From NCBI GenBank assembly GCA_902826065.1, contig CADEDM010000001.1:23340-87339 (forward strand): a DNA stretch of 64,000 bases, read 5' to 3'. This DNA comes from an uncultured Acidobacteriota bacterium (GTDB lineage: Bacteria > Acidobacteriota > Vicinamibacteria > Vicinamibacterales > UBA2999). Position numbers and translations under genes: made by a program. This document shows positions 993 through 31,616 of this stretch, piece after piece (position 1 is the first letter of the stretch; every line of letters begins with the position of its first letter). The notes beneath the pieces were generated by a model that saw nothing but the letters and a program-made list of their open reading frames with translations, ran no database searches and was not told the DNA's origin.

Positions 993-1077
993 CTGTCTCC
1001 TGCGGGGTGTTCCAGCGCCAGCCCGCCGCAGTCTTGCTCGTGTCGGGCGGCGCGCGCCCACCGAAGGGCCGTCGCCG

Positions 1078-2628: not shown

Positions 2629-2809
2629 ACGTTAGCGTGGAATCGGCACCGAACGCGACCGGCGGTTCCGACTTGTCGATAGCAAGCGGCATGCCGCGGA
2701 TACCTGCCAGCGCGCTAACTCCCAACCACCGGGCGACCGATATTGACTCCGGGGGCGTGGCCTGCCGTTACGGCCGGCCCGCCCAATCTGCACAAGAAAG
2801 CACGTTGTC

Positions 2810-4345: not shown

Positions 4346-4349
4346 GCCC

Positions 4350-14490: not shown

Positions 14491-14492
14491 TC

Positions 14493-15362: not shown

Positions 15363-15372
15363 GGCCGGTCGC

Positions 15373-18300
15373 ATGTCACGCCACGTCGCATCCACAGATA
15401 TCGCCATCATCGGCATGGCGTGCCGCGTCCCTGGCGCGCCCAGCTACGGCGCTATGTGGCGCCTGCTGGCCGAGGGCCGCGAAGGCCGGACGACCCTCGA
15501 CGACGAGGCGCTGCGCCAGGCCGGTGAGCCCGAGGCGCTGTTCGCGGATCCGGCCTACGTCAAGGCCGGCATGTTCCTCGACGGCGTCCGCCTGTTCGAC
15601 CCCGGGTTCTTCGGCTTCAGTCCGCTCGACGCCCGCGTGCTCGACCCGCAGCACCGCCAGTTCCTCGAGTGCGCCTGGGAGGCCTTCGAGGATGCCGGCG
15701 TCGACCCGGGCCGCCAGCCGGGCACGATCGGCGTGTTCGCCGGTTCAGGACAGCACCTGTACTACGCGCAGCACCTGCTGACCAACGAGACGCTGGTCGA
15801 TCAGGTGGGCCGCTTCCTGCTGCGCCACACCGGCAACGACAAGGATTTCCTCGCCACCCGCGTCTCTTACTGCTTCGACCTGCGCGGGCCCAGCATCAAC
15901 CTGCAGACCGCATGCTCGACGTCGCTCGTCGCCGTGCACACGGCGATGCAGAGCCTGCTCAACGGCGAGTGCGACGTGGCGCTCGCCGGAGCGGTGACCA
16001 TCGAGCTGCCGGATCGCGTCGGCTACCTGTACCGGCCGAGTGAGATCCTCTCGCCCGACGGCCACTGCCGGCCGTTCGATGCCAGCGCCGGTGGCACGCT
16101 CTTCGGCAGCGGCGTCGCGATCGTCGTGCTGAAGAAGGCGGCGCAGGCGGTCGCGGACGGCGATCACATCCACGCGCTGATCAAGGGGTCGGCCGTCAAC
16201 AACGACGGGTCCGGCAAGGTGAGCTACCTCGCGCCGAGCGTGGACGGCCAGGCGGACGCCATCGCCGAGGCACTGGCGATGGCGGAGGTCGAGCCCGACA
16301 GCGTGAGCTACGTCGAGGCACACGGCACCGGCACCCAGCTCGGCGACCCCATCGAGGTGGCTGCGCTGTCGCAGGCTTACGGCCGCGATTCGGCCACTGC
16401 CGCGCCGTGCGGCCTCGGCTCGATCAAGTCGAACATCGGCCATCTCGACACGGCGGCTGGCACGGCCGGCCTCATCAAGCTGGCGCTTGCGCTGCAGCAC
16501 CGCACGCTGCCGCCGACGCTGCACTACACGGCGCTGAACCCGGCGATCGATCCCGCCCAGACCTCGTTCCGCGTGGTCGACCACCTGCGGCCATGGACCG
16601 GACCGTCGCCCCTGCGCGCCGGACTCAGTTCGCTTGGCGTCGGCGGCACCAACGCGCATCTCGTCGTCGAAGAGGCGCCGCCCACCGCGCCGGACGGCAC
16701 GGCGCGCGACCGGCAGCTCCTGGTGCTGTCGGCGCGCTCGAGGCCCTCGCTCGAACGTGCTCGCCAGGCCTTGGCCGCGCGCCTCGACGGTGTCGAGGCC
16801 TCGGCCCCGCGCCTGGCCGACATTGCCTACACGCTGGCCACCGGCCGGCGCGCGTTCAAGCACCGCGCGAGCCTGGTCGCTGCGGCGCCGCTCGAAGCCG
16901 CCGATCTGCTGTCGGCGCGCGAATCGGACCAGGTGGTCGTCGGCGAGACGGCAGAACAGGGACGCCGTGTGGCGTTCACGTTCGCCGGTGGCGGCGCGCA
17001 GCATCCCGGCATGGGCAAGGAGCTCTACGCCCACGAGCCGGCGTTCCGCGCCGCTCTCGACCGATGTCTGTCCGCACTCACGCGCCACACCGACTTCGAT
17101 CTCAAGCCGCTGCTCTTCCCGGCGACAGCGGAGGCCCGGCAGCACGCCGCGGCCGCGCTCGAACGTCCGAGCCGGGCGCTTCCGGCGCTGTTCTCGATGC
17201 AGTACGCCCAGGCGACCTTGTGGCGCGCGTGGGGCATCGAGCCCCACGCGTTCATCGGCCACAGCATGGGCGAGAACACGGCGGCCTGTCTCGCCGGCGT
17301 GATGGAGCTCGACGATGCGCTCGGCCTCGTGGCCTTGCGCGGCCGCCTCTTCGAACGTGTGGCGCCCGGAGCGATGCTGAGCGTGGAACTCGACGAAGCG
17401 GCCCTGGGGCCTTGGCTGGCGCCCGGGCTCGACGTCGCGGCCGTGAACGCGCCGGGCCTCACCGTCATCTCCGGTCCCGCGGCCGACGTCCGTCGTCTCC
17501 AGGAGCGGCTCGAAGCCGCGAACATCGGCTGCCAGCGCATCCGCATCGAAGTGGCCGCACACTCATCGATGCTCGAGCCGATTCTCGCCGACTTCCGCGC
17601 CTACCTGCGCTCCTTGCCGCTGTCGGCTCCCGCGACGCCCTTCATCTCCAACGTCACCGGCCGCTGGATTGAGCCGGGCGAAGCGACAGATCCCGAGTAC
17701 TGGGTGCGCCACCTCCGGCAGACCGTGCGTTTCGCCGACGGCGTCGGCCAGCTACTGCGCGACGGGCCGCCGGTGCTGCTGGAAGTAGGCCCGGGCCGTA
17801 CCCTCACGAGCCTGGCGTCACTGCATTCCGACAAGACCGCGCACCACGTGGTCCTGACGTCGATGCCGCGGGCTGACGAAGAGGCCAACGACCTGTCGCA
17901 CATGATGGGCGCGCTCGGCCGCCTGTGGGTCAATGGCGTCGATCCCGACTGGACGCGCTTCTACGAGGGCCAGCAGCGGAAGAAGCAGCCGCTGCCGACC
18001 TACTCGTTCGACCATGCCGAGTACTGGATCGACCGTAGCACCGCATCCACCGGCCGCGCGGGCGACGCGCGAGGCCAGGCCGGCGTCTACGAGCCGGTGT
18101 GGCGTCCGGCCGCGCCGCGCCCGTCGTTCGAAGCTCCTGGCGCCTGCGTCCTCGTCCTCGACGACGACCGCGACCGGCTGCGGAGCTTCGAGACGGCCCT
18201 CGTCCGCGCTGGCGCCGCGGTGCGTCTGGTCCTGGCGTCCGACCGGTGCCTCGTTGAGGGCACCGGCCCGTGCGAACTGCGCACCGGTGTGCCCGACGAC

Positions 18301-21051
18301 TATCTGCGCGTGCTCGACGCGTGCCGCGCGGCGGGCTCCACCCCCAGTCACGTGATTCACGCGCTGGGATTGGGTGCAGCGACCGGCATCGACGCCGGCC
18401 ATCACGTCGACGCGGTGCGGCGCTGCTTCGACAGCCAGTTCTTCCTGGCCCAGGCGATCGCGTCGGGCGATGCCACGCCCGTGCACTGGCTCGCGCTCTC
18501 CCACCGCGCCTGGCAGGTCGGCGGCGAGGCGCCGTGGTCGCCCTATGGCGCGCTGGCCGTGGGCATCACGAACACCTTGCCACGCGAGTTCCCCTCGTGG
18601 CTCGCCCGTGTCGTCGACGTCGAGAACCCGCGGCTCGCGGCCGAGTCGATCGACAAGATCCTGGCCGAGATGCCACAGGTGGCGGATGCCACGGTCGACG
18701 AGCCAGTGGTGGCGCACCGCGGACGGCAGCGATTCGTGCGCGACTGGCTGCGGCAGGATGCGCCCGCAGCGCTACCAAGCGTGTTGCTGCGGCCCCATGG
18801 CGTCTATCTCGTCACCGGCGGCACCGGCGGACTCGGTCTGGTGGCCGCCGGCGTGCTGGCGCAGGCAGCGCCCGCTACGCTGGTGCTGGTGTCGCGTCGC
18901 CCGTGGCCGCACCGCCAGCACTGGGACGAGCTGATTCGGCGCGGCGCGCCCGAGGCCGAGTCGCTCAACGCGCTGCTCGCGCTCGAACAGAAGGGTGCCC
19001 GTGTCGTCCTCGAAACTGCGGACATCGCCGACGCGACGTCGGTCGAGGCCGTCGTCTCCCGGACGCGACAGACCTGCGGCGCGCTGCACGGGGTCATCCA
19101 TGCCGCCGGCATCGTCGACGACGCGCCCCTGATCGCGAAGGACCTGGCGCACGCGCATCTGGTGCTGGCCCCCAAGGTCGCCGGCACGACCGCCCTCGCC
19201 AGGGCCCTGGCCTCCGCGTCGCTGGACTTCTTCGTCCTGTACTCTTCCTCGAGCGCATTCGCCGGGCTGCCGGGCCAGGCCGACTACGCCGCCGCCAACG
19301 CCTTCCTCGACGGTTTCGCCGCCTGGGCGCGCGAGCAGGGCCTGCCCTGCGTCGCCGTCGACTGGCCGGCGTGGCGTGGCACTGGACTCGCCGCCGCCAT
19401 CAGCCGTGGTGCCGCCGTGCGCCCGGCACCCGGGCGTCCCACCGACCACCCGATGCTCGGCCGATGCACGGTCGACGAGGCCGGACGTCGTGCCTTCCTG
19501 ACGCAGGTCAGCGCCGAGGACTCGTGGATGATTCGCGAGCATCGTCTCAAGGACGGCCCGGCGCTCATGCCGGGGTTCGGCTTCCTCGAGATGGCTCGGG
19601 CCGCATGGTTCGAAGGCCGTCCGGCGGGACCGTTCGAGCTGGCCGATACCTCGGTCGACTATCCGTTCATCGTCCAGGACCAGGCCCCGCGCTGGCTCGG
19701 CGTCGAGCTCTCGCCGGCATCGAACGCGTTCGTCGTGGTCAGCGAGGACGGCGACGGTCGCACGGAGCACGTCCGTGGCACTGTGCGGGACGCCTCGCCG
19801 CTCGCCGCGCGCCTCGATGTCGCTGCAATCCGGCAGCGCTGCGCGCGTGGCGTACAGCGTTTCGACGACGCCGACCACCACCCGTTCCTCCAGTTCGGCC
19901 CGCGCTGGGCGTCGCTGAAGACGGTGGCCTATGGCACGCACGAAGCGCTGATCGATCTGGATCTGGCGCCGGAGTTTCGCGCCGATCTCGACGCCTACGT
20001 GCTCCATCCGGCGCTGCTCGACATGGCCGCCGCCGGGGCCCAGGTGATCATCGAAGGCCATACGCCCACCGACGAAGTGTTCGTGCCGGTGGGCCTCGGC
20101 CGCCTGCGCGCCACCGCCGGATTCCCGTCGCGGTGTCTCAGCCACGTCACGTACAAGCCCGGCCCGGCTGGCGAGTCGCGAGAGGTAGCGCACTTCGACG
20201 TGCGCGTCGCCGACGCCGACGGTACCGTCTTCCTCGAGATCGACCACTTCGCCATGCGCCGCCTGCCCGGCACAGACGCGCTGCGGCGGCTGCCGGCGGC
20301 GGGGTCGCGCGCGATCGCCCCGACGCTCGAGCGCGCGCTCGAACTCGGCATCGACCCGGGGGAAGGGGCACGTGTGCTCGCGACGGTGCTGGCCGGCGTC
20401 ACGAGCGCGCAAGTCGCAGTGGCGCCGGTGGAGCCGCGCGTGCTCGTCCGCGAACTGCGGCAGGCGGCGGCCCCGCCGGCGCCAGCACGAGAGGTCATCG
20501 CGTTCGATCCCGACGACGATCCGGCGATTGCGCCGGCCGAGACCGTGCTCACCGCGTGCCCTGCTGTCGCGGCGGCGGTCGTCCGCTCGTTCCATGGCGA
20601 TGGCGCGACCCGGCGTCTCGTGGCCTTCTTCGTGCCCGACCACGACCACTTCGTGACGCAGGGCGAGGTGCGGCGCTACGCGCGCGAACATCTCCCCGCC
20701 GGCCAGGTCCTGACGCAACTCATCGAGCTCGACGAGCTGCCGCGCAACGGCACCGGCGTCGACCGCCGCGCGCTGCACGACCCGTCGGCGCCGGTGACCC
20801 GCATCGTCCCGCCCCGCACCACCGTCGAGAAAGCCGTCGCCCGGGTGTGGCAGGACGCGCTCGGAGTGGATGCCGTGGGCCTCACCGACAACTTCTTCGA
20901 CCTCGGGGGCCACTCGCTCCTGTCGGCGAGGATCATCGTGCAGCTCGATCGCAAGTTCGGGGTGCGCCTCAACCAGGCGACGATGGCGCTGGGCACGCTC
21001 GAGCAGATCGCGCGCGACATCGAGCGGCGCACCGAGGACAGCCCGAAGTGA
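15373..21051 (+). CDS. Type I polyketide synthase, KS-AT-KR-DH-(vestigial A-domain C-terminal subdomain)-PCP; no TE
   Basis: 1892 aa. See the domain features below. All catalytic motifs of KS, AT, KR and DH can be read directly from the translation. Confidence 0.95.
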   Translation: MSRHVASTDIAIIGMACRVPGAPSYGAMWRLLAEGREGRTTLDDEALRQAGEPEALFADPAYVKAGMFLDGVRLFDPGFFGFSPLDARVLDPQHRQFLECAWEAFEDAGVDPGRQPGTIGVFAGSGQHLYYAQHLLTNETLVDQVGRFLLRHTGNDKDFLATRVSYCFDLRGPSINLQTACSTSLVAVHTAMQSLLNGECDVALAGAVTIELPDRVGYLYRPSEILSPDGHCRPFDASAGGTLFGSGVAIVVLKKAAQAVADGDHIHALIKGSAVNNDGSGKVSYLAPSVDGQADAIAEALAMAEVEPDSVSYVEAHGTGTQLGDPIEVAALSQAYGRDSATAAPCGLGSIKSNIGHLDTAAGTAGLIKLALALQHRTLPPTLHYTALNPAIDPAQTSFRVVDHLRPWTGPSPLRAGLSSLGVGGTNAHLVVEEAPPTAPDGTARDRQLLVLSARSRPSLERARQALAARLDGVEASAPRLADIAYTLATGRRAFKHRASLVAAAPLEAADLLSARESDQVVVGETAEQGRRVAFTFAGGGAQHPGMGKELYAHEPAFRAALDRCLSALTRHTDFDLKPLLFPATAEARQHAAAALERPSRALPALFSMQYAQATLWRAWGIEPHAFIGHSMGENTAACLAGVMELDDALGLVALRGRLFERVAPGAMLSVELDEAALGPWLAPGLDVAAVNAPGLTVISGPAADVRRLQERLEAANIGCQRIRIEVAAHSSMLEPILADFRAYLRSLPLSAPATPFISNVTGRWIEPGEATDPEYWVRHLRQTVRFADGVGQLLRDGPPVLLEVGPGRTLTSLASLHSDKTAHHVVLTSMPRADEEANDLSHMMGALGRLWVNGVDPDWTRFYEGQQRKKQPLPTYSFDHAEYWIDRSTASTGRAGDARGQAGVYEPVWRPAAPRPSFEAPGACVLVLDDDRDRLRSFETALVRAGAAVRLVLASDRCLVEGTGPCELRTGVPDDYLRVLDACRAAGSTPSHVIHALGLGAATGIDAGHHVDAVRRCFDSQFFLAQAIASGDATPVHWLALSHRAWQVGGEAPWSPYGALAVGITNTLPREFPSWLARVVDVENPRLAAESIDKILAEMPQVADATVDEPVVAHRGRQRFVRDWLRQDAPAALPSVLLRPHGVYLVTGGTGGLGLVAAGVLAQAAPATLVLVSRRPWPHRQHWDELIRRGAPEAESLNALLALEQKGARVVLETADIADATSVEAVVSRTRQTCGALHGVIHAAGIVDDAPLIAKDLAHAHLVLAPKVAGTTALARALASASLDFFVLYSSSSAFAGLPGQADYAAANAFLDGFAAWAREQGLPCVAVDWPAWRGTGLAAAISRGAAVRPAPGRPTDHPMLGRCTVDEAGRRAFLTQVSAEDSWMIREHRLKDGPALMPGFGFLEMARAAWFEGRPAGPFELADTSVDYPFIVQDQAPRWLGVELSPASNAFVVVSEDGDGRTEHVRGTVRDASPLAARLDVAAIRQRCARGVQRFDDADHHPFLQFGPRWASLKTVAYGTHEALIDLDLAPEFRADLDAYVLHPALLDMAAAGAQVIIEGHTPTDEVFVPVGLGRLRATAGFPSRCLSHVTYKPGPAGESREVAHFDVRVADADGTVFLEIDHFAMRRLPGTDALRRLPAAGSRAIAPTLERALELGIDPGEGARVLATVLAGVTSAQVAVAPVEPRVLVRELRQAAAPPAPAREVIAFDPDDDPAIAPAETVLTACPAVAAAVVRSFHGDGATRRLVAFFVPDHDHFVTQGEVRRYAREHLPAGQVLTQLIELDELPRNGTGVDRRALHDPSAPVTRIVPPRTTVEKAVARVWQDALGVDAVGLTDNFFDLGGHSLLSARIIVQLDRKFGVRLNQATMALGTLEQIARDIERRTEDSPK
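15397..16675 (+). other. PKS ketosynthase domain
   Basis: DIAIIGMACRVPGA; active-site Cys in QTACSTSLVA (codon 15913-15915); EAHGTGTQLGDPIE; KSNIGHLDTAAG; ends GGTNAHLVVEE. Confidence 0.9.
16969..17818 (+). other. PKS acyltransferase domain
   Basis: VAFTFAGGGAQHPGMG; nucleophile elbow FIGHSMGE (Ser codon 17263-17265). The specificity motif reads VAAHS, neither a clear HAFH nor YASH, so the substrate is not called. Confidence 0.85.
18796..19380 (+). other. PKS ketoreductase catalytic subdomain (structural subdomain lies upstream from about 18130)
   Basis: HGVYLVTGGTGGLGLV Rossmann motif; SSSSAFAGLPGQADYAAANAFLD (catalytic Tyr). Confidence 0.85.
19447..20290 (+). other. PKS dehydratase (double hot-dog) domain located AFTER the KR
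   Basis: HPMLGRC...IREHRLKDGPALMPGFGFLEMA (catalytic His), LQFGPRWASL, LHPALLDMAAAGAQ (catalytic Asp motif). Confidence 0.8.
20491..20780 (+). other. Vestigial adenylation-domain C-terminal subdomain (A8-A10 region only)
   Basis: RRLVAFFVPDHDHFVTQGEVRRYAREHLPAGQVLTQLIELDELPRNGTGVDRRAL. The A10 Lys is replaced (NGTGVDRR versus NGKLDRR in the neighbouring NRPS). No A1-A7 core lies upstream of it. Confidence 0.65.
20812..21030 (+). other. NRPS-type carrier (PCP/thiolation) domain of the PKS
   Basis: VARVWQDALGVDAVGLTDNFFDLGGHSLLSARI; phosphopantetheinyl Ser codon 20914-20916. Confidence 0.85.
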
Positions 21052-21833
21052 ACCCCCTCTTCTTCGGACCCGCGGACTCGCCGCTCTACGGCGTGCACCA
21101 GCCGCCCCAGATCGCGGGCAACGGTGGCGGCGTCGTGCTGTGCTATCCGTTCGGCCAGGAGTACATGCGGGCCCACCGCGCCTGCCGGCAGCTCTCGCTG
21201 CTGCTGGCCCGGCGCGGCTTCCACGTGCTCCGCTTCGACTACCGCGGCACCGGCGACTCGAGTGGCGACATCGACGACGCCGGCGTCGAGCGCTGGGTCG
21301 ACGATGCGGGCGCGGCTATCGACGAGCTGCGCGAACTGAGCGGCCTGTCACAGGTCTCGGTGATCGGGCTCCGGCTCGGCGCGTGGTTCGCGGCCCGGGC
21401 CACCGAGCGGCGCACCGACGTCGACCGGCTCGTCGTCTGGGATCCGATCGTCGACGGCGCCGCCTACCTCGAGGAGATTCGCGGGGAAGTCGCCGCCGAG
21501 GTGCCGACCAGCTACAGCCCGCCGTCGGGCAGCCGGGTGTTCGCCGACGGCACGATCCACTACAACGGGTTCGAGATCCCCGCACGCCTGGCCGGTGAGC
21601 TGTCACGCCTGCGGCTGGACGCGACCGTGCCCGCGTCGGCGCGGCGCGTGCTGCAACTCGTCTCGCACGAGGTCCCGGCGTTCCTGCGGTTGCGCGATGC
21701 TTGGCGCGCGCATCCCGCCTACCGGTATCAGTTCACGCCGGCTCCGCACGACTGGAACTTCGTCGACGAGTTCGGCGGGATTCTGCTGCCGCAGCCGGCG
21801 ATTCAGGCGATCGTCGAGTGGATGAGCGAGTGA
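21048..21833 (+). CDS. Alpha/beta hydrolase fold protein, 'exosortase-system hydrolase 2'-like (copy B)
   Basis: GTG start in a GTGA overlap with the PKS stop (21048-21051). VNPLFFGPADSPLYGVHQPP...VVLCYPFGQEYMRAHRACRQLSLLLARRGFHVLRFDYRGTGDSSG...VVWDPIVDGAAYL. It appears in the track only as the tail of the artefactual 1187-aa ORF 18270-21833. Confidence 0.8.
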   Translation: MNPLFFGPADSPLYGVHQPPQIAGNGGGVVLCYPFGQEYMRAHRACRQLSLLLARRGFHVLRFDYRGTGDSSGDIDDAGVERWVDDAGAAIDELRELSGLSQVSVIGLRLGAWFAARATERRTDVDRLVVWDPIVDGAAYLEEIRGEVAAEVPTSYSPPSGSRVFADGTIHYNGFEIPARLAGELSRLRLDATVPASARRVLQLVSHEVPAFLRLRDAWRAHPAYRYQFTPAPHDWNFVDEFGGILLPQPAIQAIVEWMSE

Positions 21834-21840
21834 GCGAGCG

Positions 21841-22689
21841 ATGAGAGAACGCGTGCTTCGCATCGGGCGGCCGACGCCCCTGGCCAGCGTCGCCACCGAG
21901 CCCGACGCCTTCGACGCGTCGAAGCCGGCCGTGCTGATCCTGAACTCGGGAGTGCTGCACCACATCGGGTCGTGCCGGATGTCGGTACGGCTGGCGCGCC
22001 GGCTGGCGGAACGCGGCCTGCTCGCCGTGCGCTTCGACTTCTCGGGCCTCGGCGACAGCGAGCCGCGCCTGGCGACGCCGAGCTTCGAAGAAGTGTCGGT
22101 GACCGAGTCCACGGAGGTGATGGACCTGCTGCAGCGCACACGCGGCGTGCAGTCGTTCATCCTCTACGGCCTCTGCTCCGGCGCCGACGGCTCGTACAAC
22201 ACCGCGCTGCGCGATCCACGCGTCGTGGGGATCAGCCAGTTCGACCCGTACTGCTACGTGACCCCCCGTTACTACCTGCGGTACTACCTGCAGGCGGCGC
22301 GTGATCCGCGCCGGTGGCGCAGCGTGGCGACGCGCGCACTGAAGACCCTGTTCGGCCGAGAGACCGCGCCGCAGACGACGGTCGAGTCGGAGTTCGTGGA
22401 GTTGCCCAGCTACGTCCGCGTCTTCCCATCGCGGGAGTCGATTGCCGCCGGCCTGGCGGCGCTCGTGCAGCGCGGCGTGCACGTGCAGGCGAACTTCCCG
22501 CGCGGACCGCTGTACAACCACCGGTCGCAGTTCGTCGACAGCTTTCGCGACGTCGACTTCCGCGGCCTGGTCGAGGTCAACTACTACGGTGACGCGAATC
22601 ACATCGTGACGCAGCCCGTCCTGCAGGGCCGCATCATCGACGGCGTCGCCGACTGGGCCGCGCGCGTGGCCATGGGCGGTGCGCGATGA
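21841..22689 (+). CDS. Alpha/beta hydrolase, 'exosortase-system hydrolase 1'-like (copy B)
   Basis: PAVLILNSGVLHHIGSCRMSVRLARRLAERGLLAVRFDFSGLGDSEP...FILYGLCSGADGSY (Cys codon 22174-22176 at the nucleophile elbow). Confidence 0.8.
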   Translation: MRERVLRIGRPTPLASVATEPDAFDASKPAVLILNSGVLHHIGSCRMSVRLARRLAERGLLAVRFDFSGLGDSEPRLATPSFEEVSVTESTEVMDLLQRTRGVQSFILYGLCSGADGSYNTALRDPRVVGISQFDPYCYVTPRYYLRYYLQAARDPRRWRSVATRALKTLFGRETAPQTTVESEFVELPSYVRVFPSRESIAAGLAALVQRGVHVQANFPRGPLYNHRSQFVDSFRDVDFRGLVEVNYYGDANHIVTQPVLQGRIIDGVADWAARVAMGGAR

Positions 22690-25600
22690 CGTCCGAGACA
22701 CCGCCGATGTCCTCTGCGCTCACGGTCCTGGTCGTTGGCGATCAATCGCTGACGATCGAATGCAGCGAGATCCTGCGCGCTGCCGGGCACACCATCACCG
22801 CGGTCGTGACCGGTGACGCCCGCGTCCGCCGCTGGTCCGAGGAGCGCGGCGTGGCGGCCCTGCCCGACGCGCAGACCGCCCTCGACAGCCCATCCGCCGC
22901 GGCGTTCGACTACCTGCTGTCGATCGCCAACCTGAAGCTGCTGCCGCCGGCGCTGGTCAGCCGTGCGCGGTTCGGCGCCGTCAACTTCCACGACGGCCCG
23001 CTGCCGCGCTACGCCGGTCTCAACGCGCCGGCGTGGGCGCTCATGGCCGGTGAGCAGCAGCACGGCATCACCTGGCACGTGATGACCGACGAGGTCGATG
23101 CCGGCGACGTGCTGCTCGAGCGCGCCGTGGCCGTCGACGACGATGACACCTCGTTCACGCTGAATGCGCGCTGCTACGAGGTCGGCATCCAGTCGTTCGC
23201 GGAGCTCGTGCCCCGCCTGGCCTCACGGTCGGCCGCCGGCGCGCCGCAGGACCTGTCGCTGCGCACGTATTTCGCCCGGGCGGAGCGGCCGCGCGGCCTG
23301 GCCACCCTCGACTGGCGGCAGCCCGCCGCGCATCTCGACCGGGTCGTGCGTGCGCTCGACTTCGGGCCGTATCGCAATCCACTGGCCGTGCCCAAGGTGT
23401 GGGTCGGCTCGCGGCTCCTGGTGGCACGCCGGAGCCAGGTACTCGAAACGGGCGACGCGGCTACGCCAGGGACGATCAAAGAAGTTGGCGAACGGCGTCT
23501 CGTCGTGGCCTGCGCGCAGGGCGCCCTGGCGTTGAGCGACCTCACCGACATGAGCGGCGCCGCCGTGGACGTCCGCGCGGTGGCCGCGGCGGAAGGGCTG
23601 CGTGTGGGCAGTCGCCTGCCGGTGTCCGACGACGCACGCCTCGACGCGGTCGACCGCCTCGCCGCTCAGATTGCGCCGCACGACGGCCGGTTCCGGGCGC
23701 TCATGCGGCGCTTCACGCCCACCGAGGCGCCGGCGGCCGGCGCCGAATCGACCGTGCGCACCTGGCACGAGTGGGACGGCCGCACCGCCAGACCGGACAC
23801 GTTGCTCGCCGCGATCGTCCTGGTGCTGGCGCGCATCACTCAGTCGCCGGCGCTGGCGTTCGGCTTCGTACCGTCGTCGCGCGCAGTGCTGGACGGACAC
23901 CTGCGCGCCTACGTGCACGACGTCGTGCCCGTCGAGATCGCGTGCGCCGATGCAGACGCGGTGGCGGAGCTCGCCGCGCGCGTGGCGGCGGCCGCCGCCC
24001 ACGCCGAGACCGCGGTGGGCATGTCGCGCGACCTGTTGCTTCGTGAAGGCGCGGCCGCGGCGCTCGAGTCGCCCGACCGCGCGCCGATCCGCGTCGTGCG
24101 CGCCACGGGGCTCCTCCCCGATACGGCGCGTGCCGCCGCCGGCGCGGCCGTGATGACGTTCCAGGTGACCGACGACGGGCGCATGGGCTTGCTGGTGGAT
24201 GCGGGGCTGGTGTCCCCAGACATCGCCCGCGAGATTCTCGCGTCGATCGGCCAGGTCGTACCGGTGGTCGAGGACGGCCTCGGACGCGTCGCCGACGTCG
24301 ACCTGCTCACGCGCGATCAGCGCGAGCGCCTGATGGAGTGGGCGAGGGGTGACGCGCCCGACGGCGTCGCGCCGCTTCCCGACGTCTGCGTCCACGAGCT
24401 GTTCGAGGCCCAGGTCGCCCGCTCGCCCGGCCATGTGGCCTGCGTCTGCCGCGGCCAGGAGCTGACCTACGCGGATCTGAACCAGGCGGCCAACCGCCTC
24501 GCCCGCCACCTGCGCACCTCGGGCGTCGGCACCGGTGACCGCGTCGGCGTCATGGTCGACCGGTCGCTGGAGATGGTGGTCGTGCTCTACGCGGTGCACA
24601 AGGCCGGCGCGGCCTACGTGCCGCTCGACCCGAAGTACCCGTCGGAGCGTCTCGGGTTGGTGCTCGCCGGCGCCGACGTCCGTTGTCTCGTCGTGCGTGT
24701 GGCCACTTCCGGCGTCGACGCCGCCATCCCGCAGGTCGTCCTCGAGGACGTGTGGCCGCGGCTCGCCGAACTGGCGCCAGACAACCTTGGCGCCCTGGCC
24801 ACGCCCGACGATCTCGCCTACGTCATTTACACCTCCGGCTCGTCGGGCACTCCGAAGGGCGTGATGGTCGAGCACCGCAACGTGGTGAACTTCTTCGCTG
24901 GAATGGACCGGCGGATCGACCGCACGCCAGGCACGTGGCTCGCCGTGACCAGCATCTCGTTCGACATCTCGGTGCTCGAGCTGTTCTGGACGCTGGCCAG
25001 GGGCTTCACCGTCGTCCTGCATGCCGATGGGCCCGCGAGCGCCTCGCTCGTCGTGCCGCAGGCGGCGCGCGCCAAGGGCATCGAGTTCGGGCTGTTCTAC
25101 TGGAACGTCGCCTCACCCGACAGCGACCACGCGCAGGAGAAATACCGGCTGCTGCTCGAGAGCGCGAAATACGCCGACGCGAACGGCTTCACCGCCGTGT
25201 GGACGCCGGAGCGCCACTTCGCGTCATTCGGCGGTCTCTACCCGAATCCGGCTGTCACGTCAGCGGCGCTCGCCATGGTCACGAGCCGCGTGGCCCTGCG
25301 CGCCGGCAGTTGCGTCGTGCCGCTGCATCACCCGATCCGGATCGCCGAGGAATGGGCGGTCGTCGACAACCTCTCGGGCGGCCGCGTCGGCATGTCGGTG
25401 GCGTCGGGCTGGGCCACGCCAGATTTCGCGATTCGCCCCGAGGCCTTCGAAGGGTCGAAGCGCCTGCTGTTCGAGAACACGGCGATCGTGAAGCGGCTCT
25501 GGCGCGGCGAGACCGTGGAGTTCCCGGGACCGAAGGGGCCGGTGCAGGTGCGCACCCTGCCGCGGCCGCTCCAGAAAGAGCTCCCCGTCTGGGTGACGAC

Positions 25601-27356
25601 CGCGGGCAACGTCGAGACCTTCGTGTCGGCAGGCCGCATGGGCGCCAACCTGCTGACCCACCTGCTCGGCCAGACCGTCGAGGAAGTGGCGGAGAAGGTC
25701 GCCGCCTACCGCGCGGCTTGGCGCGACGCCGGGCACGCGGGGCGTGGCATCGTGACGCTGATGCTCCACACGTTCGTGGGCCCCGACCCTGACGAGGTCG
25801 AGCGCATCGTGCGCGGACCGATGAAGGAGTATCTGCGCAGCGCCGCCAACCTGGTCAAGGCCGCCGCCTGGCAGTTCCCGACGTTCAAGCGCCTGTCGGA
25901 CGAACAGGGCAAGACCCTCGACGATTTCTTCAACACGATCGCCGAGGACGACATGGATGCCCTGCTGGAGTTCGCATTCCAGCGCTACTTCCGCACGAGC
26001 GGTCTGTTCGGCACCGTCGAGGAGTGCCAGGCGATGGTGGGGCGCGTCGACGGGGCCGACATCGACGAGATCGCGTGCCTGATCGACTACGGCATCGACA
26101 CCGACGTCGTGCTCGAGCATCTGCCGTACCTGAACGCTCTGCGCGAGTCGGTGCAGGCGCGTGGCGACGATCGCCGCCACTCCCTCGCCGGCCTGCTCGG
26201 CAGCGGCGTCATCACACACTTCCAGTGCACGCCGTCGATGGCGCGGATGGTGCTCGCAGAGCCGGCCGCGACCGTGGCTCTTGGCGAGCTCCGCGAGGTC
26301 CTAGTCGGAGGGGAAGCGTTGCCCCCCGACGTCGCCGACGCCCTCGCGACGGCGGCGCCGGGGCGCGTGACCAACGTCTATGGCCCGACCGAGACGACCG
26401 TCTGGTCGGCGGCCAGCCGCGTCAGTCCTGGCGGCGGCGCGGTGCCGATCGGCACGCCGTTGCTGAACCAGCAGCTCTACGTGCTCGATAGCGTGGGCCG
26501 GCCGCTGCCGCCTGGCGTACCTGGCGAGCTCGTCATCGGCGGCATGGGAGTCACGCGCGGCTACTGGAACCTCGACGCCAGCACGCGTGAGCGTTTCGTG
26601 GCGGACACTCTGTCGCCACGTCCCGCAGCGCGGATGTATCGCACCGGCGATCGTGGGCGCGTGCGGCCGGATGGGCAGTTCGAGTGTCTCGGGCGGCTCG
26701 ACCAGCAGGTCAAGATCCGCGGCTACCGCGTCGAGCCCGGCGAGATCGAGGCGCGGCTGTGCGAACATGCCGGCATCGCCGAAGCGGCCGTGATGCTGCG
26801 CGAGGATCGTCCGGGCGACCAGCGTCTGGTCGCCTACGTGCGCCCGGCCCCGAGCCAGCGACCGGCACCTGACGACGTTCGCCGCCATGCCGCCGAGCGC
26901 CTGCCCGAGTACATGGTGCCGTCGATGGTCGTCGTGCTCGACCAGATGCCGCGGACACCGAACGGCAAGCTCGACCGTCGCGCGTTGCCCGCACCGGACT
27001 CGGTGACGGCGCCCGCGGCGCCCGCGGCGTCCGCGAGCGCTGCGACGCTGTCGACGGGCGTCTCGGAGCCGCTCGTGACCGAAGTCTGGGAACACGCGCT
27101 CGGTGTGCCGGTGCGTGGCCGCCAGGACAACTTCTTCGATCTCGGCGGGCACTCGCTGCTCGTCGTCCAGGTTCTGGCTGAGCTCCGCAAGCGAGTCAAG
27201 AAGCCGCTTGCGCTGACCGATCTCTTCAAGTACACCACGGTGGAGAGTTTGGCCGCGTTCATCGACGGTCAGCAGGTGTCGACGCGAACTCAGGCCGGAG
27301 CCCGGGCGAGTCGACGGCGCGACGCGCTCGCGCGGAGGGAACGCGCGTTCGAATGA
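22686..27356 (+). CDS. NRPS-like initiation protein: N-formyltransferase, C-domain-like remnant, adenylation domain interrupted by a luciferase-like monooxygenase, then PCP; no TE
   Basis: 1556 aa. ATGA overlap with the upstream hydrolase (22686-22689). See the domain features below. Confidence 0.95.
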   Translation: MTSETPPMSSALTVLVVGDQSLTIECSEILRAAGHTITAVVTGDARVRRWSEERGVAALPDAQTALDSPSAAAFDYLLSIANLKLLPPALVSRARFGAVNFHDGPLPRYAGLNAPAWALMAGEQQHGITWHVMTDEVDAGDVLLERAVAVDDDDTSFTLNARCYEVGIQSFAELVPRLASRSAAGAPQDLSLRTYFARAERPRGLATLDWRQPAAHLDRVVRALDFGPYRNPLAVPKVWVGSRLLVARRSQVLETGDAATPGTIKEVGERRLVVACAQGALALSDLTDMSGAAVDVRAVAAAEGLRVGSRLPVSDDARLDAVDRLAAQIAPHDGRFRALMRRFTPTEAPAAGAESTVRTWHEWDGRTARPDTLLAAIVLVLARITQSPALAFGFVPSSRAVLDGHLRAYVHDVVPVEIACADADAVAELAARVAAAAAHAETAVGMSRDLLLREGAAAALESPDRAPIRVVRATGLLPDTARAAAGAAVMTFQVTDDGRMGLLVDAGLVSPDIAREILASIGQVVPVVEDGLGRVADVDLLTRDQRERLMEWARGDAPDGVAPLPDVCVHELFEAQVARSPGHVACVCRGQELTYADLNQAANRLARHLRTSGVGTGDRVGVMVDRSLEMVVVLYAVHKAGAAYVPLDPKYPSERLGLVLAGADVRCLVVRVATSGVDAAIPQVVLEDVWPRLAELAPDNLGALATPDDLAYVIYTSGSSGTPKGVMVEHRNVVNFFAGMDRRIDRTPGTWLAVTSISFDISVLELFWTLARGFTVVLHADGPASASLVVPQAARAKGIEFGLFYWNVASPDSDHAQEKYRLLLESAKYADANGFTAVWTPERHFASFGGLYPNPAVTSAALAMVTSRVALRAGSCVVPLHHPIRIAEEWAVVDNLSGGRVGMSVASGWATPDFAIRPEAFEGSKRLLFENTAIVKRLWRGETVEFPGPKGPVQVRTLPRPLQKELPVWVTTAGNVETFVSAGRMGANLLTHLLGQTVEEVAEKVAAYRAAWRDAGHAGRGIVTLMLHTFVGPDPDEVERIVRGPMKEYLRSAANLVKAAAWQFPTFKRLSDEQGKTLDDFFNTIAEDDMDALLEFAFQRYFRTSGLFGTVEECQAMVGRVDGADIDEIACLIDYGIDTDVVLEHLPYLNALRESVQARGDDRRHSLAGLLGSGVITHFQCTPSMARMVLAEPAATVALGELREVLVGGEALPPDVADALATAAPGRVTNVYGPTETTVWSAASRVSPGGGAVPIGTPLLNQQLYVLDSVGRPLPPGVPGELVIGGMGVTRGYWNLDASTRERFVADTLSPRPAARMYRTGDRGRVRPDGQFECLGRLDQQVKIRGYRVEPGEIEARLCEHAGIAEAAVMLREDRPGDQRLVAYVRPAPSQRPAPDDVRRHAAERLPEYMVPSMVVVLDQMPRTPNGKLDRRALPAPDSVTAPAAPAASASAATLSTGVSEPLVTEVWEHALGVPVRGRQDNFFDLGGHSLLVVQVLAELRKRVKKPLALTDLFKYTTVESLAAFIDGQQVSTRTQAGARASRRRDALARRERAFE
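22719..23560 (+). other. Formyltransferase domain (Fmt/ArnA/LgrA-F-like; N- and C-subdomains)
   Basis: LTVLVVGDQSL...; catalytic Asn/His in AVNFHDGPLPRYAGLNA; Asp in HVMTDEVDAGDVLL; followed by a Formyl_trans_C-like beta-barrel (PKVWVGSRLLV...). Confidence 0.8.
24384..25035 (+). other. Adenylation domain, N-terminal portion (A1-A4)
   Basis: LTYADLNQAANRLARHL (A1), AVHKAGAAYVPLDP (A2), LAYVIYTSGSSGTPKGV (A3), SISFDISVLELF (A4; Asp235-equivalent present). Confidence 0.9.
25077..26160 (+). other. Luciferase-like monooxygenase (LLM/MOx) domain inserted between A4 and A5
   Basis: GIEFGLFYWN...YADANGFTAVWTPERHF...VVPLHHPIRIAEEWAVVDNLSGGRVGMSVASGW...VWVTTAGN.... Resembles the 'natural product biosynthesis LLM domain' (recalled as TIGR04020/MupA type). 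Confidence 0.8.
26217..26995 (+). other. Adenylation domain, C-terminal portion (A5-A10)
   Basis: NVYGPTETTVW (A5), GELVIGGMGVTRGYW (A6), YRTGDRGR (A7), KIRGYRVEPGEIE (A8), LPEYMVPS (A9), PRTPNGKLDRRAL (A10, Lys intact). Confidence 0.9.
27061..27270 (+). other. PCP/thiolation domain of the NRPS-like protein
   Basis: VTEVWEHALGVPVRGRQDNFFDLGGHSLLVVQV; Ser codon 27153-27155. Confidence 0.85.
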
Positions 27357-27384
27357 GGCGATCCGCTCCGCGAGGTCCGAGGCC

Positions 27385-28281
27385 GTGATGTCTCCCCCCC
27401 TGACCGTGTCCGTGGTCGTGCCGTGCTACAACTACGGCGCGTACCTGCCGGCGTGCCTCGATTCGGTGCTGGCGCAGACGCGGCCGGCGTTCGAGATCGT
27501 GGTCGTCGACGACGGCTCAACGGACGACACGGCAGCGGTGGTCGCGCCGTACCTGGGCGACGGCCGGGTGCACTTCCATCAGCAGGCGAACAGCGGCCAG
27601 GCGACCGCCAAGAACCTCGGCATCCGGCATTCGCGCGGCGACATCGTGGCGTTCCTCGACGCCGACGATCTATGGATGCCCGAGAAGCTCGCGCGACAGG
27701 TGCCGCTGTTCGATGATCCGGCGGTGGGCGTGACGTTCACCGGCCAGCGATCGATCGACGCCGAGGGGCGTCCGCTCGCGACGTTCGGGCGTCGCGGTTA
27801 CCTGACGTTCAGGCGCGGGCGGATCACGCCGTGGCTCGGCTTCGAGAACATCGTGCCCTTCTCGTCGTCGGCGGTGCGGCGGGCGCTGCTCGTGGAGAAC
27901 CGCGGCTTCGACACGACGCTGGGAATGGGGATCGACTGGGACCTGTGGCTGCGGCTGTCGCTGGTCACGGACTTCGACTTCGTGCCCGATCCGCTGTTCG
28001 CCTATCGCGTGCACGGCCACCAGATGTCGCGCAACCTCAGTGGCCGCATCGACGCGTCGGAGCACATCTTCCGCACGTTCGTATCGCGGCACCCCGGCGC
28101 CTTCTCAACGCAGGAACTGCAGGCCGTGGAGTTCTACAACGCGTGCTCGCGCGGCCGTGCGTTGCGCGGCGTCGACCGCTCGCGCTCCGACGCTTATTTC
28201 CGGATGGCGCTTCGGATGAAGCCGTGGTCGCCCAGACCGTACCTGGGACTGCTGAAGAACGCCGTGGCGGGCCGGCGCTAG
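27385..28281 (+). CDS. Glycosyltransferase family 2 (last gene of the + operon)
   Basis: LTVSVVVPCYNYGAYLPACLDSVLAQTRPAFEIVVVDDGSTDDT...QATAKNLGIRHSRGDIVAFLDADDLW. The start is the GTG at 27385 or the ATG at 27388. Confidence 0.85.
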   Translation: MMSPPLTVSVVVPCYNYGAYLPACLDSVLAQTRPAFEIVVVDDGSTDDTAAVVAPYLGDGRVHFHQQANSGQATAKNLGIRHSRGDIVAFLDADDLWMPEKLARQVPLFDDPAVGVTFTGQRSIDAEGRPLATFGRRGYLTFRRGRITPWLGFENIVPFSSSAVRRALLVENRGFDTTLGMGIDWDLWLRLSLVTDFDFVPDPLFAYRVHGHQMSRNLSGRIDASEHIFRTFVSRHPGAFSTQELQAVEFYNACSRGRALRGVDRSRSDAYFRMALRMKPWSPRPYLGLLKNAVAGRR

Positions 28282-31609: not shown

Positions 31610-31616
31610 GGGAGCT

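What the first reader, a model, noticed from the sequence alone, without database searches (positions are those of the whole stretch)
15373..27356. PKS and formyl-NRPS megasynthases, split by an exosortase-type hydrolase pair, embedded inside an EPS assembly operon
SEEN: in the + operon 10588-28281 the EPS genes come first: chain-length determinant, BY-kinase-like ATPase, priming sugar transferase and DUF3473 deacetylase. They are followed by five more genes with almost no intergenic space. The junctions are 15362/15373, a GTGA overlap at 21048-21051, 21833/21841, an ATGA overlap at 22686-22689, and 27356/27385. Those five genes are a 1892-aa PKS, a hydrolase-2-like protein, a hydrolase-1-like protein, a 1556-aa formyltransferase-A(LLM)-PCP protein and a GT2. 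Each megasynthase ends in a GGHSL carrier domain. Neither has a TE, R or terminal C release domain.

KNOWN (from memory of Haft et al. 2006 and TIGR03098-03101 names): in XrtA/PEP-CTERM loci the hydrolase-1/hydrolase-2 pair usually travels with a small module of an AMP-forming acyl-CoA ligase, a carrier protein and a PLP decarboxylase of unknown role.

INFERENCE: here that small module appears to be replaced by full megasynthases. The two alpha/beta-fold proteins would then be the off-loading or transfer enzymes. They would move a polyketide-derived acyl unit and an N-formyl/alpha-oxidised aminoacyl unit from the carriers onto the nascent polysaccharide or its lipid primer. I know of no described EPS system with this composition.
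Basis: partly seen in the sequence, partly recalled or inferred. Interest (0 to 1): 0.9.

Follow-up and report, generated by a model that had tools for sequence, protein, structure and literature searches.

The report
Glycine NRPS-PKS cassette inside polysaccharide operon
A conserved, uncharacterised four-gene unit sits in the middle of a polysaccharide-export operon: a glycine-loading enzyme, a one-module polyketide synthase and an unusual pair of hydrolase-like proteins that stand where a release domain would be. Its relatives lie next to sugar-polymer genes in many bacterial phyla, which suggests an undescribed way of attaching a small built-to-order acyl group to a polysaccharide.

Summary
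All five genes, their junctions (GTGA and ATGA overlaps) and their domains are as described.

The interpretation needs revising in four ways.

1. The two alpha/beta proteins hit TIGR03101 and TIGR03100 best but score well below the cut-offs. They belong to a large sister clade. In it, "hydrolase 1" always has a Cys nucleophile (GxCSG plus His), and "hydrolase 2" always has Arg at the nucleophile position (GLRLG). The two are found fused to each other and fused to the terminal PCP of NRPSs. They therefore act as one two-part off-loading unit with a single catalytic centre, not as two independent transferases.

2. The NRPS A domain carries a glycine code (DILQLGVVWK). Its monooxygenase is inserted between motifs A4 and A5, as in MtaG/MelG.

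3. The unit FT-A(Gly,MOx)-PCP + KS-AT-KR-DH-PCP + hyd2 + hyd1 is a conserved cassette found in many phyla. Its most common gene order is NRPS, PKS, hyd2, hyd1, which suggests one short hybrid assembly line.

4. The link to polysaccharide loci recurs but is not obligatory. It was seen for 4 of 7 orthologues sampled without regard to context, in a Variovorax EPS cluster, and as a hyd1-flippase fusion.

The product and the acceptor remain inferred. No XrtA is present in the window.

The parts
15373..21051 (+). Single-module type I PKS. Order: KS (Cys in QTACSTS, His in EAHGTGT and SNIGHL), AT (GHSMGE), structural KR subdomain, KR (GGTGGLG, VDD, Tyr/Asn), DH (HPMLG, HPALLD), an A-domain C-terminal subdomain remnant with no A core (residues 1723-1795), then PCP (FFDLGGHSLL, Ser1848). 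It has no TE, R or ER domain.
21048..21833 (+). Hydrolase-2-like alpha/beta-fold protein. Arg109 occupies the nucleophile elbow (GLRLG). It is predicted to be the non-nucleophilic partner or docking subunit of the off-loading pair.
   Evidence: TIGR03101 at 97 bits, below the 203 cut-off. Arg is invariant in 82 homologues. AF2 model pLDDT 92, with residue 109 between strand 103-108 and helix 109-120. Fused to a terminal PCP in L067, L075 and L077, and fused to hyd1 in L074 and L092-L094.
21841..22689 (+). Hydrolase-1-like alpha/beta-fold protein with a Cys nucleophile (G110-L-C112-S-G114) and conserved His254. It is predicted to be the catalytic off-loading enzyme or acyltransferase.
   Evidence: TIGR03100 at 66 bits, below the 168 cut-off. 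Cys is 100% and His 97% conserved in 76 homologues. AF2 model pLDDT 86, with Cys112 at the strand-helix elbow. The family holds 7434 clusters at 50% identity.
22686..27356 (+). NRPS loading-type module. Order: formyltransferase (N100-x-H102 ... D138); a roughly 270-aa degenerate remnant of a condensation-domain C-lobe; an A domain with glycine code DILQLGVVWK; an FMN luciferase-like monooxygenase inserted between A4 (FDIS) and A5 (NVYGPTE); then PCP (FFDLGGHSLL).
   Evidence: meaning of the glycine code and of the monooxygenase position from PMC12283262, PMC5466765 and PMC10204066
10588..15362 (+). Upstream EPS genes of the same operon: chain-length determinant (10588-12180), BY-kinase-like ATPase (12191-13096), priming sugar transferase (13117-14490) and polysaccharide deacetylase (14493-15362).
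27385..28281 (+). Family 2 glycosyltransferase, the last gene of the + strand operon.
7261..8939 (-). Second paralogous pair: hyd2' at 8121-8939 (elbow GAGLG) and hyd1' at 7261-8124 (elbow GICSA). They overlap by ATGA. A GSDH-like gene (8981-10564) precedes them and a membrane protein (about 6236-7264) follows. Their closest relatives are the Variovorax EPS-cluster pair (42% and 40% identity).
30998..32663 (-). Polysaccharide export protein (TIGR03027-like, 30998-31609) and EpsA-type ATPase (TIGR03015-like, 31617-32663). They mark the far side of the EPS locus.
1..6295 (.). Near side of the EPS locus: GT4 (3-1298, -), PMT_2-like membrane glycosyltransferase (1078-2628, -), MOP flippase (2810-4345, +) and two GT2 genes (4305-5354 and 5351-6295, +).

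Best explanation
The 12-kb block is one conserved cassette that works as a short hybrid NRPS-PKS assembly line without a thioesterase.

Step 1. The NRPS module adenylates glycine and loads it on its PCP. This is inferred from the specificity code; the code itself was read here.

Step 2. The fused formyltransferase N-formylates the glycine, and the monooxygenase embedded in the A domain hydroxylates its alpha-carbon. The result is either N-formyl-alpha-hydroxyglycyl-S-PCP or, after the carbinolamide collapses as in MtaG/MelG, glyoxylyl-S-PCP. This is inferred by analogy.

Step 3. The KS takes up this starter. One malonyl unit is added, reduced by KR and dehydrated by DH. This gives a C4 enoyl thioester on the terminal Asub-PCP. 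The catalytic motifs were shown here; the serial hand-over and the number of rounds are inferred.

Step 4. The hyd2/hyd1 complex stands in for a thioesterase. Hyd2 (Arg at the elbow, no nucleophile) docks on the Asub-PCP end. Hyd1 takes the acyl group on Cys112, with His254, as a thioester and passes it to an acceptor. The residues and the fusions were shown here; the chemistry is inferred.

Step 5. In this locus the acceptor is most likely the lipid-linked EPS repeat unit or the polymer itself. This is inferred from operon embedding, recurrent synteny and a hyd1-flippase fusion.
For: All catalytic motifs are intact in KS, AT, KR, DH, FT, A and both PCPs.

The Gly code is DILQLGVVWK, and DILQxG..WK is conserved in all 18 aligned orthologues. 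DILQLGMIWK is the published signature of MOX-bearing Gly domains (PMC12283262). The monooxygenase sits between A4 and A5, as in myxothiazol and melithiazol (PMC10204066).

The same four genes occur together in 20 of 80 genome loci, spanning Acidobacteriota, Gammaproteobacteria, Gemmatimonadota, Myxococcota and Nitrospinota. The colinear order NRPS-PKS-hyd2-hyd1 is seen in 12 of them.

In almost all 80 loci hyd2 lies directly downstream of an Asub-PCP, most often belonging to a Gly-code A domain.

Fusions found: PCP-hyd2 (L067, L075, L077) and hyd2-hyd1 (L074, L092-L094), with GLRLG and GxCxG retained.

The Cys, His and Arg residues are invariant or nearly so.

The polysaccharide link rests on several results:
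- Translational coupling inside the operon.
- The same arrangement in the Vicinamibacterales MAG L012.
- GT and sugar-nucleotide neighbours in L007.
- The Variovorax paradoxus cluster NRPS-PPTase-hyd2-hyd1-Wza-Wzc-sugar transferase.
- 14 of 83 loci with two or more classes of EPS marker within 10 kb.
- 4 of 7 FT-A(MOx)-PCP orthologues chosen only for contig length lie directly beside export, flippase or GT genes.
- A hyd1::Polysacc_synt_3 fusion in an NRPS-hyd2-hyd1/flippase-Wzx-deacetylase-GT4 contig.
Against: - No product, intermediate or acceptor has been observed.
- In the window the gene order is PKS-hyd2-hyd1-NRPS, which is not colinear.
- In L099 and L101 the FT-A(MOx)-PCP gene sits in EPS loci without a PKS or a hydrolase pair. 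The glycine-derived unit can therefore be used without polyketide extension, and the PKS may not take it as starter.
- Most hyd-pair loci (69 of 83) show fewer than two EPS markers within 10 kb, and L010, L102 and L105 show none. However, the megasynthases fill much of those flanks.
- No control set of random loci was available, so the enrichment is judged only against a rough expectation of a few percent (my own estimate).
- Structure comparison of hyd1 gave only generic lipase and feruloyl-esterase folds.
- A KS-AT-KR-DH module could also act iteratively.
Confidence: 0.5

Rival explanations
1. Parallel model. The PKS and the NRPS each build a separate unit, and each of the two alpha/beta proteins transfers one of them onto the polysaccharide or its lipid primer.
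For: - There are two carrier-terminated synthases and two hydrolase-like genes, with the pair lying between the two synthases in the window.
- FT-A(MOx)-PCP occurs alone in EPS loci (L099, L101), so the glycine unit can be used on its own.
- The window and Oceanicoccus L009 each hold two hydrolase pairs, which could serve two carriers.
Against: - Hyd2 has Arg, and hyd2' has Gly, in place of the nucleophile, so there is only one catalytic centre per pair.
- Hyd2 and hyd1 occur as a single polypeptide.
- The commonest gene order is NRPS-PKS-hyd2-hyd1.
- Relatives carry A-PCP fused directly to KS-AT (L054, L063, L085 and others).
Confidence: 0.15
2. Hitch-hiking secondary-metabolite cluster. The cassette makes a small free (diffusible) glycine-malonate metabolite, released by hydrolysis, and its position inside EPS loci has no mechanistic meaning.
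For: - Many cassette or hyd-pair loci show no polysaccharide genes in the visible flanks.
- The cassette moves as a unit between phyla and changes its gene order.
- A PPTase is a frequent neighbour, as in ordinary biosynthetic clusters.
Against: - In the window the genes overlap or are spaced by 7-28 nt, between a deacetylase and a GT2, with no internal terminator-like site.
- Polysaccharide genes are the commonest neighbour class and recur in at least six phyla.
- A hyd1 domain is fused to a flippase-like membrane protein.
- The nearest named families are themselves defined by association with EPS systems.
Confidence: 0.25
3. Iterative PKS making a lipid or polyene. The KS-AT-KR-DH module, which has KR before DH as in enediyne and PUFA synthases, runs several rounds and builds a polyenoyl chain that anchors or caps the polysaccharide. 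The NRPS supplies the head group.
For: The domain order KS-AT-KR-DH without ER resembles iterative polyene-forming synthases (my own knowledge). The KS region also hits PfaA and Pks13-type models below their thresholds.
Against: Nothing here separates one round from several. Related loci place a C-A(Gly)-PCP module right after the same PKS (L102, L103, L105), as in modular, non-iterative lines. No chain-length factor or hot-dog thioesterase lies nearby.
Confidence: 0.1

Closest known systems
Exosortase-A-associated hydrolase 1 / hydrolase 2 pair (TIGR03100 / TIGR03101), which travels with the TIGR03098 AMP-forming ligase
   Same: They are the best, and nearly the only, named hits for both proteins of both pairs. 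The genes are adjacent in the order hyd2 then hyd1, next to an adenylating enzyme and a carrier, inside an XrtA-type EPS gene set.
   Different: - Scores are 52-115 bits against cut-offs of 168 and 203 for every homologue tested.
- No XrtA is in the window.
- I could not check whether the canonical families also carry Cys and Arg at the elbow.
MtaG / MelG glycine modules with a monooxygenase embedded in the A domain (myxothiazol, melithiazol)
   Same: A glycine-code A domain with the luciferase-like monooxygenase inserted between A4 and A5 (PMC10204066; PMC12283262; PMC11342130).
   Different: MtaG and MelG are terminal C-A(MOx)-PCP-TE modules that release an amide plus glyoxylate. Here the module has an N-terminal formyltransferase, only a degenerate C-lobe, no TE, and looks like a starter module.
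Formylation-domain loading modules (LgrA F-A-PCP; formyl-glycine starters of oxazolomycin and conglobatin-type PKS lines)
   Same: An F-A-PCP architecture with a conserved N-x-H...D formyltransferase motif, glycine specificity, and a KS as the next enzyme.
   Different: This comparison rests on my own knowledge and was not tested here. Those lines have no embedded monooxygenase, they use a cyclodehydratase to form an oxazole, and they end in a TE. None is linked to polysaccharide genes.
Dlt D-alanylation of teichoic acids (DltA adenylation enzyme, DltC carrier, transfer to a cell-envelope polymer)
   Same: The functional logic is the same: an amino acid is activated, carried on phosphopantetheine and handed to a glycopolymer. 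The A domain hits DltA models below threshold.
   Different: The transfer machinery is unrelated (MBOAT DltB and DltD), there is no PKS, and the polymer and amino acid differ. This is an analogy only.
Amino acid:[carrier protein] ligase clusters of Alphaproteobacteria and Betaproteobacteria (aaRS-like enzymes that load Gly or Ala on a carrier)
   Same: On Azospirillum and Mycetohabitans replicons a fused hyd2-hyd1 protein (GLRLG + GxCxG) lies in the cluster ACP / acyl-CoA dehydrogenase / aa:CP ligase / DUF1839 / GH2. The theme is again an aminoacyl-S-carrier, an oxidising enzyme and the hydrolase pair.
   Different: The loading enzyme and the oxidase are different and there is no PKS. The glycine preference of those ligases is from my own memory of Mocibob et al. 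2010 and was not checked here.

Membership tests
TIGR03101 hydrolase 2, exosortase A system-associated | Whole-protein score at or above the curated cut-off (202.75 bits) | tested here: not met
   97.3 bits for 21048-21833 and 82.8 bits for the second pair. Five homologues from other loci score 86-115 bits.
TIGR03100 hydrolase 1, exosortase A system-associated | Whole-protein score at or above the curated cut-off (168.45 bits) | tested here: not met
   65.9 bits for 21841-22689 and 66.5 bits for the second pair. Homologues score 52-106 bits.
TIGR03100/03101 pair | The two unrelated alpha/beta proteins are encoded side by side | tested here: met
   They are adjacent in the window, twice, and in 70 or more of 80 related loci. 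They are fused in L074 and L092-L094.
XrtA / PEP-CTERM EPS system | Exosortase XrtA and PEP-CTERM substrates are present | tested here: not met
   No XrtA hit in any ORF tested across the whole window. The two fn3 proteins lack a PEP-CTERM tail. The rest of the genome is not available.
XrtA / PEP-CTERM EPS system | System-specific EPS genes score above their cut-offs | tested here: inconclusive
   TIGR03013 (436 > 393) and TIGR03006 (392 > 276) pass. TIGR03007 (267 < 279), TIGR03018 (148 < 231), TIGR03027 (146 < 180) and TIGR03015 (222 < 324) do not.
Type I modular PKS module | KS Cys-His-His, AT GHSxG, KR Rossmann fold plus Tyr, DH His and Asp motifs, carrier Ser | tested here: met
NRPS formylation-type loading module (F-A-PCP) | Formyltransferase N-x-H...D catalytic motif, A-domain core motifs A3-A10, PCP GGHSL | tested here: met
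   Formyl transfer itself is not testable with these tools.
MtaG/MelG-type A(MOx) glycine module | Monooxygenase inserted between A4 and A5 of a glycine-specific A domain | tested here: met
   FDIS at residue 759, LLM at 800-1153, NVYGPTE at 1230, code DILQLGVVWK
MtaG/MelG-type A(MOx) glycine module | A terminal module with an upstream condensation domain and a downstream thioesterase | tested here: not met
   Only a marginal C-lobe remnant (E = 0.056) and no TE
Serine thioesterase (type I or II TE) of NRPS/PKS | GxSxG serine nucleophile with Asp and His | tested here: not met
   Hyd1 has GLCSG (Cys 100% conserved). Hyd2 has GLRLG (Arg 100% conserved).

The most novel reading that the evidence does not exclude
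A widespread, undescribed pathway in which a carrier-protein-bound, glycine-derived unit is handed to a lipid-linked sugar or a growing exopolysaccharide. The unit may be formylated, oxidised and optionally extended by a polyketide module. The transfer is carried out by a two-part alpha/beta-fold transferase with one Cys active subunit and one Arg-bearing non-catalytic subunit. This would be the first assembly-line-to-polysaccharide acylation system, and it would assign a function to the long-unexplained exosortase-associated hydrolase 1/2 superfamily.
Probability: 0.35. Interest if true: 0.85.

Novelty: new variant of a known kind. Interest (0 to 1): 0.72.

Why it matters
The hydrolase 1 / hydrolase 2 pair has been a named but unexplained companion of exosortase EPS systems for about twenty years. 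This work adds four points.

- The pair belongs to a very large superfamily: 7434 clusters at 50% identity for hyd1 alone.
- Its conserved chemistry is a Cys nucleophile plus an Arg-substituted partner.
- It is physically and genetically tied to the terminal carrier domain of NRPS/PKS lines that usually end in glycine.
- These lines repeatedly sit in polysaccharide loci, once even fused to a flippase-like protein.

Together these turn an open annotation puzzle into a testable hypothesis, and cultured strains are available for the test: Variovorax paradoxus VAI-C, Sandaracinus amylolyticus, Oceanicoccus sp. KOV_DT_Chl, Marinobacter lipolyticus and Labilithrix luteola.

If the acceptor is a polysaccharide, this would be a new class of EPS decoration. 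It would also be a new route for off-loading from assembly lines, of interest for biofilm biology and for engineering.

Tried and rejected
- Structural homology of hyd1. The AF2 model (pLDDT 86), run through Foldseek against the PDB, gave only generic lipase, feruloyl-esterase and monoglyceride-lipase folds with TM about 0.55-0.6. It gave no functional lead, so I ran no further search on hyd2.
- Sequence searches of the PDB with hyd1 and with the hyd2 profile returned generic esterases only.
- I looked for canonical, PGAP-named "exosortase A system-associated" hydrolases among plasmid records, to compare their elbow residues. None was found. The Cupriavidus and Methylobacterium records carried no annotation.
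- Cluster look-up to name the source organism returned no names. The nearest genome is a Vicinamibacterales MAG at 67% identity for hyd2, so an acidobacterial origin is only inferred.
- Four literature searches found no paper on this cassette or on the hydrolase pair.
- I looked for a hidden release domain in the unassigned stretches of both megasynthases. I found only a KR structural subdomain, an Asub remnant and a weak C-lobe remnant.
- I considered that the formyltransferase domain might be a sugar N-formyltransferase acting on the EPS. I rejected this as the primary reading because the domain is fused to the A domain in all orthologues, including those outside EPS loci.
- I considered the corallorazine-type clusters of Corallococcus as the identity of the myxobacterial relatives. 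I rejected this because those lines end in a reductase domain and have no hydrolase pair.
Full report
**Observation**

The five ORFs and their junctions are exactly as reported.
- The PKS (15373-21051) ends in TGA inside the GTG start of the next gene, giving GTGA at 21048-21051.
- That gene ends at 21833, 7 nt before the ATG of the next gene (21841).
- The stop codon of the 21841-22689 gene overlaps the ATG of the NRPS gene (ATGA at 22686-22689).
- A GT2 gene follows after 28 nt.
- Upstream on the same strand lie a chain-length determinant, a BY-kinase-like ATPase, a TIGR03013 priming transferase and a TIGR03006 deacetylase. The deacetylase starts at 14493, 2 nt after the priming transferase stop codon, which ends at 14490.
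- The only promoter-like site in 9500-29400 lies just before the first gene. No + strand terminator-like site interrupts 10588-28281. This is weak evidence, because the counts are no better than in shuffled sequence.
- The wider window is a polysaccharide locus. It holds GT4, a PMT_2-like transferase, a MOP flippase, two GT2 genes, a TIGR03027-like exporter, a TIGR03015-like ATPase and a probable outer-membrane protein.
- No XrtA or PEP-CTERM protein was found in any ORF tested.

**Anatomy of the megasynthases**

The PKS is a complete single module.
- KS has Cys (QTACSTS) and both His residues.
- AT has GHSMGE.
- A KR structural subdomain is followed by KR with a VDD (B-type-like) motif.
- DH has HPMLG and HPALLD.
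- An A-domain C-terminal subdomain without an A core follows, then a PCP (FFDLGGHSLL).

The NRPS has the following parts.
- A formyltransferase whose N-x-H...D motif is conserved in all seven orthologues with complete N-termini.
- A poorly conserved stretch of about 270 aa that matches only the C-lobe of a condensation domain (E = 0.056).
- An A domain interrupted between A4 (FDIS) and A5 (NVYGPTE) by a TIGR04020 luciferase-like monooxygenase.
- A PCP.

I read the ten specificity positions by aligning the motifs. The code is DILQLGVVWK, and 18 aligned orthologues give DILQ[LMC]G[MV][IV]WK. DILQLGMIWK is reported as the shared signature of Gly-activating domains that carry a MOX domain (PMC12283262). 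DILQLGVI is read as glycine in nocamycin NcmB (PMC5466765). The A4-A5 insertion site is the one described for myxothiazol and melithiazol. There the domain hydroxylates the glycine alpha-carbon, the carbinolamide collapses, and a glyoxylyl thioester is left (PMC10204066; PMC11342130).

**The two alpha/beta proteins**

Both have the exosortase-A hydrolase models as their top hits but are far below the cut-offs: TIGR03101 at 97 bits against 203, and TIGR03100 at 66 bits against 168. The same holds for ten homologues from five other genomes. They are therefore relatives, not members.

Alignments of 76 hyd1 and 82 hyd2 homologues show two things.
- Hyd1 always has Cys at the nucleophile elbow (G-x-C-S-G) and a conserved His254.
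- Hyd2 always has Arg there (G-L-R-L-G).

The AF2 models are confident (pLDDT 86 and 92) and place these residues at the strand-helix elbow. Fold comparison gave only generic esterase folds.

Natural fusions are informative.
- Hyd2 is fused to the C-terminal PCP of NRPSs in an Anaerolineae genome and two Acidimicrobiia genomes.
- Hyd2 and hyd1 are one polypeptide in a Nitrospirota MAG and on Azospirillum, Mycetohabitans and Caballeronia replicons. Both elbow motifs are retained.

The pair is thus one functional unit with one nucleophile, and it sits where a thioesterase would sit.

**Distribution**

- The hyd2 family matched at least 597 loci among species-representative genomes.
- Hyd1 has 7434 clusters at 50% identity with E <= 1e-3.
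- The FT-A(MOx)-PCP protein has at least 1451 homologues at E <= 1e-50, and the top 120 share the same six-domain architecture at about 1550 aa.
- In nearly all of the 80 retrieved loci, hyd2 lies directly downstream of an Asub-PCP. The A domain of that terminal module most often has the Gly code.
- Twenty loci contain FT-A(MOx)-PCP with hyd2 (18 with the KS-AT-KR-DH-PCP PKS, and 18 with hyd1 detected), in Acidobacteriota, several gammaproteobacterial orders, Gemmatimonadota, Myxococcota and Nitrospinota.
- Twelve of those are ordered NRPS-PKS-hyd2-hyd1. Five, plus the window, are ordered PKS-hyd2-hyd1-NRPS.
- The nearest relative, a Vicinamibacterales MAG (L012; 60-73% identity over the EPS genes, KS, LLM and hyd2), has the same Wzz-kinase-transferase-deacetylase-PKS-hyd2-hyd1-NRPS arrangement.

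**Link to polysaccharides**

- Within +/-10 kb of hyd2, 14 of 83 non-redundant loci have two or more classes of polysaccharide marker, and 23 have at least one.
- Glycosyltransferases are the commonest neighbour family of the cassette.
- This count is blind on the side filled by the megasynthases. I therefore looked up seven FT-A(MOx)-PCP orthologues, chosen only for long contigs.
- Four of the seven lie directly beside polysaccharide genes:
  - Sandaracinus amylolyticus: Poly_export, GTs and rml genes.
  - Luteitalea: GT4, GT2 and CMP-sugar genes around the full cassette.
  - A 4.4-Mb genome with PrsK/R/T-like regulators, Poly_export, Wzz and a ParA-like kinase.
  - A Planctomycetota MAG with Wzx and GT2.
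- The other three show no clear polysaccharide context (one has a single GT at the locus edge).
- In Variovorax paradoxus VAI-C, two NRPS genes, a PPTase and the hydrolase pair are followed directly by Wza, Wzc, a sugar transferase and further EPS genes. This pair is the closest relative of the window's second pair.
- One hyd1 domain is fused to a Polysacc_synt_3 (MOP flippase-like) protein. Its contig reads C-A-PCP, hyd2, hyd1-flippase, Wzx, deacetylase, sulfotransferase, GT4.
- I had no random-locus control. Against my own rough expectation of a few percent, the association looks real but facultative.

**Mechanism**

*Shown here:*
- intact catalytic motifs;
- the Gly code;
- the position of the monooxygenase;
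- the Cys, His and Arg residues;
- the fusions;
- the synteny.

*Inferred:*
- Glycine is loaded, N-formylated and alpha-hydroxylated, possibly collapsing to glyoxylyl-S-PCP.
- It then primes the KS and is extended once with malonate.
- It is reduced and dehydrated to a C4 enoyl thioester.
- It is taken onto Cys112 of hyd1, with hyd2 as docking partner on the Asub-PCP end.
- Finally it is passed to an acceptor, which in this operon is most plausibly the lipid-linked repeat unit or the polymer.

Three points weaken the serial reading. The window's gene order is not colinear. FT-A(MOx)-PCP occurs alone in two EPS loci. Iterative use of the PKS cannot be excluded.

**Comparison with what is known**

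The parts are familiar: F-A-PCP loading modules, MtaG-type A(MOx) glycine modules, a modular PKS and Wzx/Wzy-type EPS genes. The following are not described in any paper I could find.
- The Cys/Arg two-protein unit that replaces the thioesterase.
- Its near-constant coupling to terminal glycine modules.
- Its recurrence inside polysaccharide loci.

A related theme appears on Azospirillum and Mycetohabitans replicons. There a fused hyd2-hyd1 protein follows ACP, an acyl-CoA dehydrogenase, an amino acid:[carrier protein] ligase, DUF1839 and a GH2 protein.

**Verdict**

I rate this a new variant of known kinds, with high interest. It offers a concrete, testable function for a very large uncharacterised superfamily.

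Noticed in passing
window 6236-10564 (- strand): A probable four-gene minus-strand operon, divergent from the EPS operon. It comprises a secreted GSDH-like (glucose/sorbosone dehydrogenase fold) protein, hyd2' (GAGLG), hyd1' (GICSA; ATGA overlap) and a membrane protein with about 5 TM segments and no family hit. A GSDH gene also lies near the cassette in the Lysobacteraceae locus L105 (15635-17011).
   Followed up: partly
window 41337-52795: A second biosynthetic-looking region. It holds a PEP-synthase/PigC-RedH-like protein (43813-46947, -), a UbiA-type prenyltransferase (46356-47267, -), a fatty-acyl-AMP/OleC-like ligase (48610-50214, -) and a NodU-like carbamoyltransferase (50268-51755, +). 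Several neighbouring ORFs have no family hit.
   Followed up: no
window 32843-36038: Two secreted fn3-domain proteins (305 and 707 aa, - strand) have nearly identical C-terminal ~50 residues and no PEP-CTERM tail. The + strand ORF 34651-35712 overlaps the larger one. It has higher third-position GC (0.92) and about 10 hydrophobic segments but no family hit, so the true coding strand there is ambiguous.
   Followed up: partly
window 20539-20757 (PKS residues 1723-1795): An A-domain C-terminal subdomain (AMP-binding_C) survives without any A core, just before the PKS carrier. Related PKSs (L102, L103, L105) are instead followed by a full C-A-PCP module. The window's PKS therefore looks like a deletion derivative that kept only the Asub-PCP end on which hyd2 docks.
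   Followed up: partly
L092 (Azospirillum brasilense p2, 6083-13755) and L093 (Mycetohabitans rhizoxinica megaplasmid, 5793-13791): A conserved cluster: ACP, acyl-CoA dehydrogenase family protein, amino acid--[acyl-carrier-protein] ligase, DUF1839, GH2-family protein and a 605-617-aa fused hyd2-hyd1 protein. It is a third way of feeding an aminoacyl-S-carrier to this hydrolase superfamily.
   Followed up: partly
P0332 (JGI metagenome 3300056388 contig, gene 3706-6846): A hyd1-like domain is fused to a Polysacc_synt_3 (MOP flippase-like) membrane domain. It lies downstream of a C-A-PCP NRPS and hyd2, and next to Wzx, deacetylase, sulfotransferase, GT4 and heparinase-like genes. No DNA was available to rule out a gene-calling merge.
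   Followed up: partly
L099 (Sandaracinus amylolyticus) 10001-16963; L101 10001-15325: FT-A(MOx)-PCP occurs in EPS loci without a PKS or a hydrolase pair. It is followed by proteins with no family hit (686 aa and 214 aa), which may be alternative off-loading partners.
   Followed up: no
L051, L060, L061, L082, L087, L090 (about 300-11700 in each): A second recurrent architecture in Alphaproteobacteria and Betaproteobacteria and in Gemmatimonadota: A(Gly)-PCP, KS-AT-KR-carrier, (C)-A(Gly or DIVQIGGIYK)-PCP, hyd2, hyd1. It predicts a Gly-(3-hydroxybutyryl-type)-Gly product.
   Followed up: no
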